A DNA stretch of 64,000 bases, from assembly GCA_943357895.1 (NCBI GenBank), contig CALRGO010000002.1, forward strand, positions 25,926-89,925, given 5' to 3'. Numbering within the stretch: the first letter of the stretch is position 1; every line of letters starts with the position of its first letter. A program made the translations under genes and the position numbers. Source of the stretch: Parcubacteria group bacterium (GTDB lineage: Bacteria; Patescibacteriota; Minisyncoccia; UBA6257; UBA11618). The notes below the pieces were generated by a model. That model worked only from the letters and a program-made list of their open reading frames with translations. It did no database searches and was not told the DNA's origin. Positions 7,272 through 11,574 of the stretch are shown here, in pieces.

Positions 7272-8696
7272 TTACAGGTAATTATCTGGCCAATCGTTTT
7301 GGAATAGTACTACGTCCCCACTCTTTAGGATAGCGGGCAACGCCGCATGGGCATCTAGGGCGGTATCGAACCATAGGATACCTTGGCTCTTAAAATCGCC
7401 CGCTTTTAGTCCTTCAGCTATGGCGCCCGTCGCACTGTTTTTAATGAGGATTACGATATCTGCCACCGCGGCGAGATCCGTACCGATCATGCGGTGAATT
7501 TCGGCGCTTCGCGAACCCATCTCTACGAGGCCGGGGGTGACGTAGATTTTACGTTTGTTTTTAAAGCGCGCGAGAACGCGCACCGCTTCACGCGCGCCGT
7601 CCGGGTTGCCGTTATAGCTGTCGTCTATTACAAGTACACCGCTTGCTGCAGTAAACGGTTCAAGGCGGTGTGCTAGGGGGCGGGTCATTGCAACGCCGTG
7701 CGTAATTTCAGCGCGTGTCATACCGAGTGTTTCTGCAACGCAGACGGCGCCCATTATTGTTGCGGGCGCGTAGCCGCCTAGGAGTGGGGTTGAAAGATGG
7801 TATGCCTCCCCATGCGCGTTCGTAAGTGAAAATGACTGCCGCAAGCCGTCCGGTTCGAAGCGGACGTCCGCGATGCCGTAGCGCGGTAGGTCGCCCGTAA
7901 GGTCGCCGTAGAAAATTACCGTACGTCCTTCGAGATTTTTTTCATATTCCCCGCGCACGCGCTTATCTTCGGCATTTAGTACGGCGATGGCTGCGGGTTT
8001 GCTGTGGCGCACAATTTCGAATTTAGCGCTTACTGTTTTTACAAGGCTACCGAATCGTTCCATATGCGCTTCGTTGATGCCCGTCAGCACGGCGACGTCC
8101 GGCGGGGTAAGTGCGCAGAGTTCGCGAATATCTCCTATGTGGTGCGCGCCCATTTCTACCACGAGGACTTCGGTTTCAGCCGATACCTTTTCGAGTATAA
8201 AGCGGGCGATCCCTACGGGGGTGTTTACGCTTTCGGGTGTTGCAAGCGTCGCAAACCGTTCGGTGAGTATTGCGGCGAGTACCGCCTTCATCGTCGTTTT
8301 GCCGTAACTGCCGGTAATAGCGACAACTTTAAGGTTGGGGAATCGCGCGAGCTTATGCCTTGCTTTGTGTAGTATGCGGCCTTTTGCGAACGAGTCGAGT
8401 GGCAACGTTATAAGTACGGCGAGCGCAAGGTAGGTGGGGAAAATAAAAAGGCTTATGAGTGCGAAGATTGCGGCGGCTATAGCACCTGCTAAATAGAGGC
8501 TAATGGCCGTTACGGCCGCGGCCGCGATTATAGCGATGAGTGTTATCGCTTTAAGCTTCGTTGTCCAAACAGCTTTTTGGCGCATGTCGGCGTTAACCGA
8601 ATAGCGGCGTGCCAAAACGCCAAAATAACGCCCAAGGTCGTACTGTTCGAGCTGCAGGAGCGCGATATGGTAGCGGATGAGTCGTGCTGGATTCAT
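7272..8696 (-). CDS. murF: UDP-MurNAc-tripeptide--D-Ala-D-Ala ligase (MurF-like) with N-terminal two-helix membrane anchor replacing the canonical N-terminal domain
   Basis: Mur ligase P-loop ITGSYGKTT, central and C-terminal Mur ligase domains; first ~100 aa are hydrophobic (TLIAIIAAAAVTAISLYLAGAIAAAIFALISLFIF). Confidence 0.7.
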   Translation of the reverse strand: MNPARLIRYHIALLQLEQYDLGRYFGVLARRYSVNADMRQKAVWTTKLKAITLIAIIAAAAVTAISLYLAGAIAAAIFALISLFIFPTYLALAVLITLPLDSFAKGRILHKARHKLARFPNLKVVAITGSYGKTTMKAVLAAILTERFATLATPESVNTPVGIARFILEKVSAETEVLVVEMGAHHIGDIRELCALTPPDVAVLTGINEAHMERFGSLVKTVSAKFEIVRHSKPAAIAVLNAEDKRVRGEYEKNLEGRTVIFYGDLTGDLPRYGIADVRFEPDGLRQSFSLTNAHGEAYHLSTPLLGGYAPATIMGAVCVAETLGMTRAEITHGVAMTRPLAHRLEPFTAASGVLVIDDSYNGNPDGAREAVRVLARFKNKRKIYVTPGLVEMGSRSAEIHRMIGTDLAAVADIVILIKNSATGAIAEGLKAGDFKSQGILWFDTALDAHAALPAILKSGDVVLFQNDWPDNYL

Positions 8697-8822
8697 GGGG
8701 GTTATTATAGCGTATTTTGTTGGTTTTGGCGATTTTTTGACCGACTATTTATTTTATGGCATTATAAGCCCGGTTGTTTCCAAATTTACAAGAATCACAC
8801 GCGTCTTTTCAGGAGTAATATC

Positions 8823-9407
8823 ATGCAGCGAACTGTTAATGATCTTATCAGGCAAGATGTTTTTACTACGGGAGAGATCGCCTTGCTTTGGGATGTTGCG
8901 CCCCGTACGGTTACTAAGATGACTGATCGTACCCACAATCCCTTACCGTCATATCGTATCGGCGATGGTCTTGATAGACGCATGCCTCGTGACACGCTTC
9001 TCATTTTCATGAAGGCGCATCATATTCCCCTTATGCGTTTAGAAGATCCTTCGTTTCCGCGGGTTTTATTTGTTTGTACGAACAAAGACATCGTCGAAGG
9101 ATTTTCAGGGCAGAGCTTCTCGGTACGTTTCGCCGGCAACTTACTTGACGCTGGTATCGAGTTGCAGTCATTTTGGCCCGCATTAGTCATTTTGGATTAC
9201 GATTTCTGTCCTGATGCAGATGTGGTCTGTGCGCAGGTACGGGCGTATCCAACTAATCCCCTCGTTATCGGCATTGGAATGGATATGAATATTCCTCATG
9301 AGTATGTGAATTCATTCATTGATAAGAAGTTAGCCATTGAAGGTTTGCTTCAGGTTGACGTTGGTCGTTTGCTGGCTAAGCGGTACGAAAAGAAAGGTGA
9401 CGAGTGA
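8823..9407 (+). CDS. HTH (excisionase/MerR-like) DNA-binding protein fused to receiver-like domain
   Basis: Start at Met after strong SD aggag (8811-8815); TTGEIALLWDVAPRTVTKM helix-turn-helix; C-terminal RVLFVCTN...LVILDYDF resembles CheY-like receiver; the longer ORF from 8577 overlaps murF and is rejected. Confidence 0.5.
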   Translation: MQRTVNDLIRQDVFTTGEIALLWDVAPRTVTKMTDRTHNPLPSYRIGDGLDRRMPRDTLLIFMKAHHIPLMRLEDPSFPRVLFVCTNKDIVEGFSGQSFSVRFAGNLLDAGIELQSFWPALVILDYDFCPDADVVCAQVRAYPTNPLVIGIGMDMNIPHEYVNSFIDKKLAIEGLLQVDVGRLLAKRYEKKGDE

Positions 9408-9435
9408 AGACCTTCTATCCGCCGGCACATGGTGA

Positions 9436-9473
9436 ACCGCCTCTCATTTTTTCGAATGGGTGGCGGTTTTTTA
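9436..9473 (+). terminator. intrinsic terminator after regulator gene
   Basis: 13-bp stem accgcctctcatt/aatgggtggcggt followed by T6. Confidence 0.55.
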
Positions 9474-10223: not shown

Positions 10224-10284
10224 AGTTTGCCTGCACCGTAGCTCGATACGTGGTATCGAGCGGGCGTAAATGTTCGTCCTCGTC

Positions 10285-10326
10285 GCACAAATAAAATATC
10301 TTTTTTCAAAGATATTTTATTTGTGC
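10285..10326 (-). other. AU-rich perfect 19-bp hairpin with GAAA tetraloop abutting tRNA-Glu 3' end
   Basis: gcacaaataaaatatcttt-tttc-aaagatattttatttgtgc; overlaps last 3 nt of tRNA; likely processing/termination structure. Confidence 0.4.
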
Positions 10327-10395
10327 TCCCACGGAGAATCGAACTCCGGTTTCGACGATGAGAACGTCACGTCCTAACCACTAGACGATAGGAGC
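10324..10395 (-). tRNA. tRNA-Glu (anticodon CUC)
   Basis: Minus-strand GCTCCTATCGTCTAGTGGTTAGGACGTGACGTTCTCATCGTCGAAACCGGAGTTCGATTCTCCGTGGGAGCA folds as cloverleaf (7-bp acceptor, D GTCT/GGAC, anticodon loop TTCTCAT, T-loop TTCGATT); no encoded CCA. Confidence 0.8.
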
Positions 10396-10401
10396 TGAGA
10401 A

Positions 10402-11574
10402 TCAGTAGCCTCTTTTTGAGATTGATCCTAGCGTTTCAATAACCGCTTCGAGTCCCTGTCCGCTTACGAGAACGAGGTCGTCGCGTTCGATGATAGCTTG
10501 CAATTCGGCTGCCGCCGCTTCCCCGTTATTAAAGTGTATTTTCTTCTTACTGTCAACGTTTATAGGGCCCTCCCCTACCGTTAATATGGCGTCACACGCC
10601 TTAATTGCGAGCTTGTTTAACGCGTCTTGCATGCGCCATTCGTCACCGCGCTTTCGTGCCGTGCCAAATACGCCGATTACGCGTTTTGCGGGCATGCTAC
10701 TAATTGCCTCGAGGGCATTGAGTAGCGCTTCTTCGGTTTCGGCTCCCGTATCATTTACAACATATGTCCCTTTTTTGCCTATCAAAAAGCTCATGCGGCC
10801 TTTTGGTAGTTCAATATAGCGTAATGCCCCTGCGGTGCGAGCGAGATGCAAACCAAACGCCGTACCAACGCACATTGCGGCTGCTGCTGCATATGCAGCG
10901 GCTTTGCCGAAGGCGTTATCCATTGCAATATGTGCGGATTGGTTACCATATGTGGCGGTAAAGGAGATGCCGGCGGGTTTCTGTATGCCTTGCGCTTTTT
11001 CTGACCGATAGGCGAGATTGCTGATTACGAGATCTACTCCATCTTCGAATCCAAATGTTATTGCGCGCGCACGGGTGCGGAGTGCAATTGCGCGCGCTCG
11101 TTCGTCGTCGCGGCATATGACGGCGTAGCCGTTGGATGGTAGGTCCCCTAAAAGCCGCCCTGCATCGGCTTCATTTTCCTTTGCTATTGCCGTTACAATG
11201 GTTATTTGCGGGCGGGTAAGGGAGGTAAATTCACGAGATCTACCTTCGGGGCATTCAAGGATAAGTAATTCGGGATAGTGGGGAGATATGTATGCTGTTT
11301 TAAATGCCTTCCACGCTATGCGCATGGAAAAGAGGATGTCAGTATCTTCCGTATCAATGCCGAGTGCGGCAAAGGGAAGGCGCATATGCTCGCTTATTTC
11401 TTCGCTTGTCGTATGCATTGACCGGATATCCGCGAGAATACCAATAAGCGCTGCTTGCGTTGTTGTTTTGCCGATCCCGCCCGTTATTGCAATGACGCCC
11501 GGTTCGAATTTTTTAATTGCGCGTCGCGCGCAATGCATAACAAACAAATCGCGCTTTTCAGAAATAAAAGACAT
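10402..11574 (-). CDS. Mur ligase family protein (MurE-equivalent by position in dcw cluster; lacks N-terminal domain)
   Basis: P-loop ITGGIGKTTT at residue ~30; central and C-terminal Mur ligase domains; 390 aa; sits between ftsI and murF. Confidence 0.65.
   Translation of the reverse strand: MSFISEKRDLFVMHCARRAIKKFEPGVIAITGGIGKTTTQAALIGILADIRSMHTTSEEISEHMRLPFAALGIDTEDTDILFSMRIAWKAFKTAYISPHYPELLILECPEGRSREFTSLTRPQITIVTAIAKENEADAGRLLGDLPSNGYAVICRDDERARAIALRTRARAITFGFEDGVDLVISNLAYRSEKAQGIQKPAGISFTATYGNQSAHIAMDNAFGKAAAYAAAAAMCVGTAFGLHLARTAGALRYIELPKGRMSFLIGKKGTYVVNDTGAETEEALLNALEAISSMPAKRVIGVFGTARKRGDEWRMQDALNKLAIKACDAILTVGEGPINVDSKKKIHFNNGEAAAAELQAIIERDDLVLVSGQGLEAVIETLGSISKRGY

What the first reader, a model, noticed from the sequence alone, without database searches (positions are those of the whole stretch)
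7272..11574. Both Mur ligases in the dcw cluster lack the canonical N-terminal UDP-substrate domain; MurF instead has a two-helix membrane anchor
MurF-like 7272-8696 starts with ~100 aa of TM helices before the GSYGKTT P-loop. The MurE-position ligase 10402-11574 has its P-loop (GGIGKTTT) at residue ~30 and is only 390 aa. This is unusual domain economy for cytoplasmic Mur ligases and may reflect membrane-tethered peptidoglycan precursor synthesis.
Basis: partly seen in the sequence, partly recalled or inferred. Interest (0 to 1): 0.5.

Follow-up and report, generated by a model that had tools for sequence, protein, structure and literature searches.

The report
Membrane-anchored MurF plus a dead paralog
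In this tiny-celled (Harrisonbacteria-like, candidate phyla radiation) bacterium, the enzyme that should add D-Ala-D-Ala to the cell-wall precursor has a conserved two-helix membrane anchor where its nucleotide-binding head normally sits, and the second "ligase", next to the division gene ftsI, is a copy of the same enzyme type that has lost its catalytic residues but is still kept by selection.

Summary
Neither ORF has a Mur-ligase domain 1, and no upstream coding sequence could restore one. The 474-aa protein (LIG1, 7272-8696) has a conserved 47-aa cytoplasmic motif and a TM hairpin before an intact MurF catalytic core. The 390-aa protein (LIG2, 10402-11574) starts about 30 residues before its P-loop.

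LIG1 is very probably the real MurF. MurF is its best HMM, sequence and fold match, and all catalytic invariants are present. It belongs to a large Patescibacteria family that always carries the anchor. It sits in a conserved operon, alpha/beta-hydrolase - LIG1 - (Alr) - Ddl.

LIG2 is not MurE. It is a MurF-type paralog from a Parcubacteria family of domain-1-less "short MurFs" that always follow ftsI. In this clade alone it has lost the Mg-binding His segment (deleted), the carbamyl-Lys, DDSYNA and GDMxEIG; relatives also lack the P-loop Lys or the whole C-domain. It is still under purifying selection (dN/dS about 0.13), so it is a likely pseudo-enzyme.

The degenerate state coincides with the LIG1 block lying beside it. 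This suggests redundancy, though it amounts to one evolutionary event.

Databases already call these proteins MurF. I found no paper describing the architecture.

The parts
7272..8696 (-). LIG1: membrane-anchored MurF-type ligase, 474 aa. Catalytic core (Mur_ligase_M + Mur_ligase_C) is aa 118-474. P-loop GSYGKTT is aa 129-135 (nt 8292-8312).
8556..8696 (-). LIG1 aa 1-47: conserved, positively charged cytoplasmic N-terminal element. Motifs are YxxxLLQLExYxLxRF and RQxxVWTxK.
   Evidence: Q15, L16, E17, Y19, R23, R39, W44, T45 and K47 are at least 90% conserved in 47 sequences. Predicted helices 3-16 and 21-30. This element is found only at the N-terminus of LIG1-like proteins among 1.84 billion representatives.
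8397..8555 (-). LIG1 aa 48-100: transmembrane helical hairpin (TM1 about 48-70, TM2 about 73-100). It ends in the invariant P99-x-D101.
   Evidence: Hydropathy. AF2 helices 46-70, 72-84 and 86-117. Flanking K+R counts and the uncharged loop.
10402..11574 (-). LIG2: domain-1-less MurF-type paralog with eroded active site, 390 aa (378 aa if started at Met13). Residual P-loop GGIGKTT is at nt 11461-11481.
   Evidence: Pfam and NCBIfam. Motif table. AF2 pLDDT 91.1, fold best matches MurF. dN/dS 0.13 against L011. The LIG2/FtsI identity ratio is 0.60-0.89 here, against 0.98-1.31 in genomes with the intact form.
11579..13231 (-). ftsI-type class B PBP. Its stop codon lies 4 bp upstream of the LIG2 start.
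   Evidence: Pfam PBP_dimer + Transpeptidase. ftsI is immediately followed by LIG2 in 80/80 related genome loci.
13232..13522 (-). Small ORF in the ftsL position (96 aa, no Pfam hit).
   Evidence: Its position between rsmH and ftsI is conserved in relatives.
13541..14461 (-). rsmH (mraW).
   Evidence: Relatives' products hit Pfam Methyltransf_5. Synteny.
14458..14889 (-). mraZ.
   Evidence: Relatives' products hit Pfam MraZ. Synteny.
10323..10395 (-). tRNA-Glu(ctc), directly downstream of LIG2. It marks the boundary where the abh-LIG1-ddl block begins in this clade.
   Evidence: ARAGORN. The same tRNA follows LIG2 in all 10 relatives checked.
9474..10223 (-). Alpha/beta-hydrolase (249 aa), the conserved operon partner of LIG1.
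   Evidence: Pfam Abhydrolase_1/6. It lies immediately upstream of LIG1 in about 69 of 80 metagenome loci; the rest are cut by contig ends. Best NCBIfam hit is EstV-family lipase, 120 bits, below its cutoff.
8823..9407 (+). Opposite-strand 194-aa gene, HTH_17-like in relatives, inserted between the hydrolase and LIG1. It occurs only in this sub-clade.
   Evidence: Gene calls and a weak PF12728 hit in relatives. Absent in L182 and in most other loci.
6107..7267 (-). ddl (D-Ala-D-Ala ligase). It starts 5 bp after the LIG1 stop.
   Evidence: Pfam Dala_Dala_lig_N/C. It lies directly downstream of LIG1 (sometimes after alr) in about 67 of 80 loci.
5767..6102 (-). Small membrane-protein ORF (111 aa) between ddl and rplU. 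It is a conserved syntenic neighbour.
   Evidence: Gene calls in relatives. Translation.

Best explanation
Two MurF-derived genes sit in a fragmented division/cell-wall cluster of a Harrisonbacteria-like Patescibacterium.

LIG1 is the organism's working D-Ala-D-Ala-adding enzyme (MurF).
- Shown: its central (ATP) and C-terminal domains are canonical and catalytically complete.
- Shown: the usual N-terminal UDP-binding domain is replaced by a conserved 47-residue cytoplasmic motif plus a two-helix hairpin.
- Inferred: the hairpin holds the enzyme on the inner face of the membrane. There it would take D-Ala-D-Ala from the co-transcribed Ddl and deliver UDP-MurNAc-pentapeptide next to MraY.
- Inferred: the conserved N-terminal motif substitutes for domain 1 in holding the nucleotide-sugar end of the substrate.

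LIG2 descends from a second family, the domain-1-less 'short MurFs' that follow ftsI in many Parcubacteria.
- Shown: in this clade it has lost the residues needed for acyl-phosphate chemistry but is still under purifying selection.
- Inferred: it no longer ligates. It is retained for a non-catalytic role tied to FtsI, such as a scaffold or a precursor-binding partner.
- Inferred: it became dispensable as an enzyme because LIG1 does the MurF job.
For: LIG1 is MurF:
- TIGR01143 murF is the best family at 225 bits. MurD scores 86, murE 54, MurT 29 and FolC 17.
- The P-loop Lys, Glu, His, Arg, DDSYNGNP and the C-domain His are invariant in 47/47 members.
- Ddl lies immediately downstream in about 67 of 80 independent metagenome loci. 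Alr lies between or just after in 8 of them. The missing cases are contig ends.
- In L164 the module lies among MurG-FtsW-MraY and GlmS-GlmU-MurA-MurB-MurC-MurE, and LIG1 is the only MurF-like gene there.

The anchor is a family trait:
- Every full-length LIG1 homologue among the top 120 hits has the anchor.
- The charge pattern is N-in/C-in.
- The N-terminal residues are conserved.
- The module occurs only at the N-terminus of such proteins.

LIG2 is MurF-derived and degenerate:
- murF scores 93 bits against murE 39.5, and the fold best matches MurF.
- The intact relative P0157 scores 263 bits on murF against 37 on murE.
- The motif table shows that the window clade has deleted 9-12 residues that include the His of the DH motif. 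It has changed REK to DAGR, DDSYNA to NDTGAE, and GDMLEIG..H to FGTARKRG. P0133, P0137 and P0139 also lack the P-loop Lys. Several members lack the GR arginine.
- In L179 the gene in the same position encodes only 270 aa: the central domain alone, with no P-loop. hhalign gives E 6e-61 to the family.

LIG2 is still selected:
- pN is 0.149 against pS 0.618, giving dN/dS of about 0.13, similar to its neighbours.
- Constraint is nonetheless relaxed. The LIG2/FtsI identity ratio is 0.60-0.89 inside the clade, against 0.98-1.31 among genomes with the intact form.

Link to redundancy:
- Every degenerate LIG2 seen lies beside the abh-LIG1-ddl block (window, L011, L094/L095, L182, L179).
- None of the 79 loci with an intact form has LIG1 within 10 kb.
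Against: - No biochemistry exists for either protein.
- Both score below the curated murF cutoff of 288.6 bits.
- I could not read whole genomes. It is therefore unknown whether this organism has a further, canonical MurF or MurE elsewhere. It is also unknown whether genomes with an intact short MurF carry LIG1 at another locus. If they usually do, the two families are not redundant and the displacement story fails.
- The association between degeneration and LIG1 adjacency is one clade, so one evolutionary event.
- LIG2 keeps the P-loop Lys and the Walker-B Glu in this genome, so nucleotide binding or an unusual residual activity cannot be excluded.
- The position aligned with the carbamylated Lys is a Lys in only 36 of 47 LIG1 members.
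- Membrane insertion rests on hydropathy, charge bias and a structure model only.
Confidence: 0.62

Rival explanations
1. One reading: LIG2 is the organism's MurE. It would add the third (diamino) amino acid, merely trimmed of domain 1.
For: It occupies the slot right after ftsI, where murE sits in the classical dcw cluster. No other MurE is present in the 64-kb window.
Against: - The murE HMM scores only 39.5 bits against a cutoff of 257, while murF scores 93. Intact family members score 263 on murF against 37 on murE.
- There is no DNPR-type motif.
- The catalytic His, the carbamyl-Lys and the C-domain motifs are lost.
- A related LIG1-bearing locus encodes a MurE that scores 357 bits, above its cutoff.
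Confidence: 0.04
2. LIG2 is still an enzyme, with altered chemistry or a different substrate. Examples would be a nucleotide-dependent modification of a precursor, or a ligase that borrows catalytic residues from a partner.
For: In this genome the P-loop Lys36 and Glu107 are retained. The two-domain fold is predicted with high confidence. The gene is under purifying selection.
Against: Close relatives under the same selection have lost the P-loop Lys (P0133, P0137, P0139) or the whole C-terminal domain (L179). Whatever is conserved therefore does not need ATP binding or the amino-acid-binding domain.
Confidence: 0.12
3. LIG2 is simply a decaying pseudogene with no function.
For: There is progressive loss of motifs and domains across the clade (430 to 390 to 270 aa). 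It evolves faster than ftsI.
Against: - It has an intact reading frame in every relative sampled. These span a divergence over which LIG1 identity falls to about 52% and FtsI identity to 67-68%.
- dN/dS is about 0.13-0.15.
- Its tight spacing to ftsI is preserved.
- A block of about 30 positions is invariant or near-invariant across the family.
Confidence: 0.1
4. LIG1 is not a UDP-precursor enzyme at all. Like MurT, which also lacks domain 1, it would work on a lipid-linked substrate at the membrane, adding D-Ala-D-Ala (or another residue) to undecaprenyl-PP-MurNAc-tripeptide. The hairpin and the conserved N-terminal motif would bind the lipid carrier.
For: - The UDP-binding domain is lost and replaced by a conserved membrane element whose invariant residues lie at the membrane boundary (W44, T45, K47, P99, D101).
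- From established knowledge, other domain-1-less Mur-type enzymes (MurT, FolC, PgsB) use non-UDP substrates.
- There is an unexplained, invariably linked esterase/lipase-like hydrolase.
Confidence: 0.1

Closest known systems
Canonical MurF (UDP-MurNAc-tripeptide:D-Ala-D-Ala ligase; e.g. T. maritima 3ZL8, E. coli 1GG4, A. baumannii 4QDI)
   Same: LIG1 has the same central and C-terminal domains and the same catalytic motifs (P-loop, Walker-B Glu, xAHxE His, GR, DDSYNxNP). MurF is its best sequence, HMM and fold match, and it is linked to ddl/alr. LIG2 has the same two-domain fold.
   Different: - Neither has N-terminal domain 1.
- LIG1 has instead a 47-aa conserved motif plus a TM hairpin, and a family-specific C-terminal tail FQNDWPDNY.
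- Both have Y-A where canonical enzymes have HNxxN.
- LIG2 lacks most catalytic motifs and carries an extra aromatic amphipathic helix inserted after the first beta-alpha unit.
- Both fall below the TIGR01143 cutoff.
'Short MurF' of Parcubacteria (the intact tier of the LIG2 family; 395-440 aa; named MurF or 'Mur ligase family protein' in databases)
   Same: It is the direct relative of LIG2. It has the same position, mraZ-rsmH-ftsL-ftsI-LIG2-tRNA-Glu, in 80/80 loci. It has the same missing domain 1 and the same FFW helix insertion.
   Different: The intact tier keeps GSVGKTST, IPVHVEF, REK, DDSYNASP and GDMLEIGK..H, and is as conserved as FtsI or more so. The window's LIG2 has lost these motifs and evolves faster.
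MurT (lipid II isoglutaminyl synthase subunit; 6FQB, 6GS2)
   Same: It is a Mur-ligase-fold protein without the UDP-binding domain 1, and it works at the membrane face on a lipid-linked precursor (established knowledge; it appears among the fold hits).
PgsB/CapB poly-gamma-glutamate synthetase
   Same: It is a Mur-ligase-like ATP-binding enzyme lacking domain 1 that acts at the membrane (from memory, not tested here).
   Different: No PgsB/CapB model appears among the NCBIfam or Pfam hits for either protein. The gene context here is ddl/alr and dcw, not pgsBCA.
PAP11 / plant 'MurE-like' subunit of the plastid RNA polymerase (8R5O, 8R6S)
   Same: It is a precedent for a Mur-ligase-fold protein kept for a structural, non-ligase role. 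It appears among the weak sequence and fold hits of LIG2.
   Different: It has a different ancestry (MurE), a different partner complex and a different kingdom. There is no evidence here for LIG2's partner.

Membership tests
Mur ligase superfamily (MurC/D/E/F, Mpl, FolC, MurT...) | Central ATP-binding domain (Pfam Mur_ligase_M) plus C-terminal domain (Mur_ligase_C). | tested here: met
   Both domains score above the gathering score in LIG1 (112.7 and 51.8 bits) and in LIG2 (30.3 and 47.6 bits). Both folds are confirmed.
MurF (TIGR01143) | Whole-protein score above the curated cutoff of 288.6 bits. | tested here: not met
   LIG1 scores 225.4 bits, with profile positions 1-64 unmatched. LIG2 scores 93.1 bits. 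The intact short MurF P0157 scores 262.9.
MurF | N-terminal domain 1, which contacts the UDP end of UDP-MurNAc-tripeptide. | tested here: not met
   No Pfam N-terminal domain is found. Alignments to MurF structures begin at chain residue about 70-103. No upstream coding sequence exists.
MurF | Catalytic invariants of Mur ligases (P-loop Lys, Glu, His of the DH/AH motif, Arg of GR, Asp of the DDxYN motif). | tested here: met
   This row is for LIG1. K133, E181, H211, R344 and D358/D359 are invariant in 47/47 family members.
MurF | The same catalytic invariants, in LIG2. | tested here: not met
   The His segment is deleted. The Lys of REK is replaced. DDSYNA has become NDTGAE. GDMxEIG..H is lost. 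The Arg and the P-loop Lys are lost in several clade members.
MurF | Genomic linkage to D-Ala-D-Ala supply (ddl, alr). | tested here: met
   This row is for LIG1. Ddl is adjacent in about 67 of 80 loci and Alr in 8. For LIG2, no ddl lies within 10 kb in the 79 loci with an intact form.
MurF | ATP-dependent addition of D-Ala-D-Ala to UDP-MurNAc-tripeptide. | not testable with these tools
   This needs an enzyme assay or complementation.
MurE (TIGR01085) | HMM score above 257.3 bits, and a DNPR/DDPR-type diamino-acid motif. | tested here: not met
   LIG2 scores 39.5 bits and LIG1 53.9 bits. No D[ND]P[RNA] motif occurs in either.
FolC / MurT / cyanophycin synthetase / CfbE (other domain-1-less or non-UDP Mur-type enzymes) | Best or significant family-level HMM match. 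| tested here: not met
   LIG1 scores 17 bits on FolC, 29 on MurT, 30 on cyanophycin synthetase and 29 on CfbE. All are far below their cutoffs and far below the murF score.
Integral membrane protein (bitopic hairpin, N-in/C-in) | Two hydrophobic helices at least 20 aa long, flanked by positive charge on the same side. | tested here: inconclusive
   Hydropathy, the AF2 helices and the K+R bias all fit, and they are conserved. No dedicated topology predictor or experiment was available.

The most novel reading that the evidence does not exclude
The membrane-anchored, domain-1-less MurF does not use the soluble UDP-precursor. It would complete the stem peptide on the lipid carrier, adding D-Ala-D-Ala to undecaprenyl-PP-MurNAc-tripeptide, or it would work in an obligatory complex with MraY. 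The last 'cytoplasmic' step of peptidoglycan synthesis would then be a membrane step across much of the Patescibacteria. The invariably co-encoded alpha/beta-hydrolase would be part of that machinery. The catalytically dead LIG2 would be an FtsI-bound precursor sensor or scaffold.
Probability: 0.1. Interest if true: 0.85.

Novelty: new variant of a known kind. Interest (0 to 1): 0.55.

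Why it matters
MurF is textbook-soluble, and its three-domain plan is treated as universal for MurC-F. It is also an antibiotic target.

A large radiation of bacteria appears to run this step with a membrane-inserted enzyme that lacks the nucleotide-binding domain. If so, this gives a natural test of what domain 1 is for. It also bears on whether Mur enzymes need to be brought to MraY, the long-discussed 'Mur complex' or channelling idea.

There is a practical consequence for annotation. In these genomes two genes are called 'MurF', and one of them is probably not an enzyme. Curated HMM cutoffs miss both, so pathway reconstructions for candidate-phyla-radiation bacteria can be wrong in either direction.

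The 430 to 390 to 270 aa series is a clean example of an essential enzyme turning into a pseudo-enzyme next to a division protein.

Tried and rejected
- Hidden N-terminal exon or frameshift: rejected. There are stops in all frames upstream of LIG1, and a 4-bp gap upstream of LIG2.
- FolC, CapB, MurT or cyanophycin-synthetase assignment: rejected on HMM and fold ranking.
- MurE assignment for LIG2: rejected.
- N-terminal module of LIG1 as a domain shared with other proteins: an exhaustive search of 1.84 billion representatives found it only at the N-terminus of LIG1-like proteins or their fragments.
- Literature: six full-text searches and one paper (PMC10214165, on Mur chimeras) gave nothing on membrane-anchored or domain-1-less MurF, or on candidate-phyla-radiation Mur ligases.
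- Whether genomes with an intact short MurF also carry LIG1: I tried matching contig lengths between the hit lists. I compared WGS prefixes for a Liptonbacteria LIG1. I listed more places for P0149. Only pairs from the window's own clade matched, so the question stays open.
- The afdb50 fold library was not available.
- The idea that the abh-LIG1-ddl block arrived by integration at tRNA-Glu is suggested by its position and by an HTH_17-like gene. I did not test it, and the HTH gene is absent in L182.
- The amphipathic 'FFW' helix of LIG2 as a membrane-binding element: the hydrophobic moment reaches about 0.56 in intact members but only 0.39 in the window protein. This is suggestive only.

Full report
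**What is there.**

On the minus strand the window carries these genes in order: mraZ (14458-14889), rsmH (13541-14461), a small ftsL-position ORF (13232-13522), a class B PBP/ftsI (11579-13231) and LIG2 (10402-11574). Then come tRNA-Glu(ctc) (10323-10395) and an alpha/beta-hydrolase (9474-10223). An opposite-strand 194-aa gene follows (8823-9407, + strand). After it come LIG1 (7272-8696), ddl (6107-7267), a small membrane ORF and rplU.

No MurC, MurD, MurE, MraY, MurG or FtsW is encoded anywhere else in the 64 kb. The rest is housekeeping genes and a large glycosyltransferase cluster.

The nearest species representative in GTDB is a 'Candidatus Harrisonbacteria' MAG, nzgw435. Its LIG2 is 75% identical and its LIG1 86% identical.

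- Pfam sees only Mur_ligase_M and Mur_ligase_C in both proteins.
- LIG1's P-loop is at residue 129 and LIG2's at residue 32.
- Alignments to solved MurF structures begin at the linker helix that normally follows domain 1.
- LIG2 starts 4 bp after the ftsI stop.
- The 777 bp upstream of LIG1 is closed in all three frames and holds a gene on the other strand.
- The hydrophobic stretch of LIG1 (about residues 45-103) is present in every full-length homologue among the top 120 hits.
- AlphaFold2 (pLDDT 91.3) models it as long helices 46-70, 72-84 and 86-117, preceded by two short helices.
- Across 47 family members, the segment before TM1 carries 8.7 K+R on average and the segment after TM2 carries 6.4. 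The short, length-variable connecting loop is uncharged. This fits a hairpin with both ends, and the catalytic domains, in the cytoplasm.

**LIG1 is a MurF with a different head.**

- The best NCBIfam model is murF at 225 bits. MurD scores 86, murE 54, MurT 29 and FolC 17. The score is below the curated cutoff because the first 64 profile positions have no counterpart.
- The catalytic invariants are present in 47/47 aligned members: P-loop Lys133, Glu181, His211, Arg344, Asp358/359 in DDSYNGNP, and His401.

The family is large. More than 2000 clusters are significant, all top hits have full-length coverage, and they are 440-500 aa long. Sources name them MurF from Colwell-, Lipton-, Magasanik- and Gottesmanbacteria and from 'Parcubacteria'.

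The N-terminal part is not a mere greasy tail:

- Q15, L16, E17, Y19, R23, R39, W44, T45, K47, P99 and D101 are at least 90% conserved.
- The family also has its own C-terminal tail, FQNDWPDNY.
- An exhaustive search with residues 1-120 found this module only at the N-terminus of LIG1-like proteins or their fragments.

**Context supports the MurF role.**

I labelled the neighbours in 80 independent metagenome loci:

- The alpha/beta-hydrolase lies immediately upstream of LIG1 in about 69.
- Ddl lies immediately downstream in about 67.
- Alanine racemase lies between or after them in 8.
- The exceptions are contigs that end there.

In locus L164 the module lies between MurG-FtsW-MraY and GlmS-GlmU-MurA-MurB-MurC-x-MurE. 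MurC there is full length (418 bits, above its cutoff). MurE scores 357 bits, above its cutoff, and its N-terminus is cut by the end of the fetched DNA. So LIG1-bearing Patescibacteria keep ordinary MurC and MurE, and LIG1 is the only MurF-like gene in that cluster.

Membrane tethering next to MraY is the simplest functional reading. It is inference, not a result.

**LIG2 is not MurE and is probably not a ligase.**

Its best family is again murF (93 bits against 39.5 for murE), and its predicted fold (pLDDT 91.1) is closest to MurF.

It belongs to a family of 395-440-aa proteins that lack domain 1 and carry an extra aromatic amphipathic helix (FFWLKVI...) after the first beta-alpha unit. In 80 of 80 genome loci this family's gene directly follows mraZ-rsmH-ftsL-ftsI, and in every case checked tRNA-Glu(ctc) comes next.

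The family splits cleanly in two.

- The common form keeps all MurF motifs: GSVGKTST, AIGDIPVHVEF, AREK, DDSYNASP and GDMLEIGK..EAHE. It scores 263 bits on the murF model. Between genomes it is as conserved as FtsI or more so (identity ratio 0.98-1.31).
- The window's form, and that of its relatives, has changed as follows:
  - It has a 9-12-residue deletion that removes the Mg-binding His.
  - DAGR stands where the carbamylated Lys should be.
  - DDSYNA has become NDTGAE.
  - GDMLEIG..H has become FGTARKRG.
  - Some members have also lost the P-loop Lys (GGHGTAMT, GGTGTTVT, GNIGTAVT).
  - Some members have also lost the GR arginine.

In MAG JAHFLN01 (L179), the gene in the same slot encodes only 270 aa. 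That is the central domain alone, with no P-loop and no C-terminal domain. It is clearly homologous (hhalign E 6e-61; 36% identity to window LIG2 residues 1-257).

The gene is nevertheless not a pseudogene. Against L011, pN is 0.149 and pS 0.618, giving dN/dS of about 0.13, like its neighbours. The frame is intact in every relative. Constraint is relaxed relative to FtsI, with an identity ratio of 0.60-0.89. What selection preserves is the central-domain core and its tight coupling to ftsI. This points to a non-catalytic role. Plant PAP11 ('MurE-like') is a precedent for such repurposing, and it shows up among the weak hits.

**Why it decayed (inference).**

Every degenerate LIG2 I saw lies next to the abh-LIG1-ddl block. 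These are the window, L001-L004, L011, L094/L095, L182 and the 270-aa case L179/L180.

None of the 79 loci with the intact form has LIG1, ddl or the hydrolase within 10 kb. Several of those loci (for example L009) share the window's synteny...ftsI-LIG2-tRNA-Glu-small ORFs-rplU-recR-dnaB-cysS, but without the block. So the block looks inserted just after tRNA-Glu in this clade.

Two MurF-type enzymes in one cell would be redundant, which would explain the loss of catalysis in one of them.

Caveats:

- This is a single clade, hence one event.
- I could not inspect whole genomes, so I do not know whether genomes with the intact short form also carry LIG1 elsewhere.

**Comparison with the known, and novelty.**

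Databases already label both families 'MurF' or 'Mur ligase family protein'. They are therefore not unknown genes, and function by homology is ordinary for LIG1.

What I did not find described is the following:

- the architecture, with domain 1 replaced by a conserved motif plus a TM hairpin;
- the fixed hydrolase-MurF-Ddl operon;
- the existence of a second domain-1-less MurF family after ftsI;
- the conversion of that second family to a pseudo-enzyme.

PMC10214165 restates the standard view that the N-terminal domain binds the UDP-MurNAc-peptide.

I rate this a new variant of a known kind, of moderate interest. The most novel reading left open is a lipid-linked substrate for LIG1, by analogy with domain-1-less MurT. 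I give it about 10%.

Noticed in passing
window 9474-10223 (-), and about 69 of the loci L091-L170: An alpha/beta-hydrolase with an apparent Ser (GHSAG)/Asp/His triad is the near-invariable upstream operon partner of the membrane-anchored MurF across Patescibacteria, and the two genes often overlap. Its best NCBIfam match is EstV-family lipase at 120 bits, well below the cutoff of 300. Its role beside MurF and Ddl is unexplained.
   Followed up: partly
window 8823-9407 (+): A 194-aa gene on the opposite strand is wedged between the hydrolase and LIG1. Relatives' copies hit HTH_17 (excisionase-type DNA-binding) weakly, and L179 has two copies. It is present only in the window's sub-clade and is absent in L182. 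It may be a regulator or a mobile-element remnant.
   Followed up: partly
window 10323-10395 (-) and 15944-16018 (-): tRNA-Glu(ctc) directly after LIG2 is conserved in all ten related loci checked, and tRNA-Val(cac) upstream of mraZ in nine of them. A strong hairpin with a T-run follows tRNA-Glu, so the ftsI-LIG2-tRNA unit probably ends there.
   Followed up: partly
window 33398-50137 (+): There is a long same-strand run of about eight GT4-family glycosyltransferases. With them are an NAD-dependent epimerase (39348-40379) and a UbiA-type prenyltransferase (37757-38644). Several ORFs have no Pfam hit, including a 705-aa one at 35673-37790 (-). This looks like a large surface-glycan or lipid-linked-glycan cluster.
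   Followed up: no
window 28621-29976 (-) and 30029-31651 (-): A 451-aa protein has a PG_binding_1 domain and no other recognised domain. Next to it is a 540-aa ORF with no Pfam hit. They may be cell-wall-acting proteins.
   Followed up: no
window 51279-62000: This stretch holds methyltransferase-domain proteins (427 aa and 762 aa), an Acyl_transf_3 membrane acyltransferase, a flavin amine-oxidase/UDP-galactopyranose-mutase-like protein and an F5/8 type C (discoidin) domain protein. There are also several 400-600-aa ORFs without any family hit.
   Followed up: no
LIG2 family alignment A3; window LIG2 aa 78-96 (nt about 11287-11343): A family-specific insertion forms an aromatic amphipathic helix (consensus GxFFWLKVIxxxxxRLIF; hydrophobic moment up to about 0.56 in intact members). 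Canonical MurF and LIG1 lack it. It could be an in-plane membrane helix, or it could cover the surface exposed by the loss of domain 1.
   Followed up: partly
LIG1 and LIG2 families (alignments A1-A3): Both Patescibacterial MurF-type families have an invariant Tyr-Ala (LIG1 Y309; LIG2 Y228-A229) where canonical Mur ligases have the HNxxN adenine-pocket motif. This shared derived feature hints at common ancestry of the two domain-1-less families.
   Followed up: no
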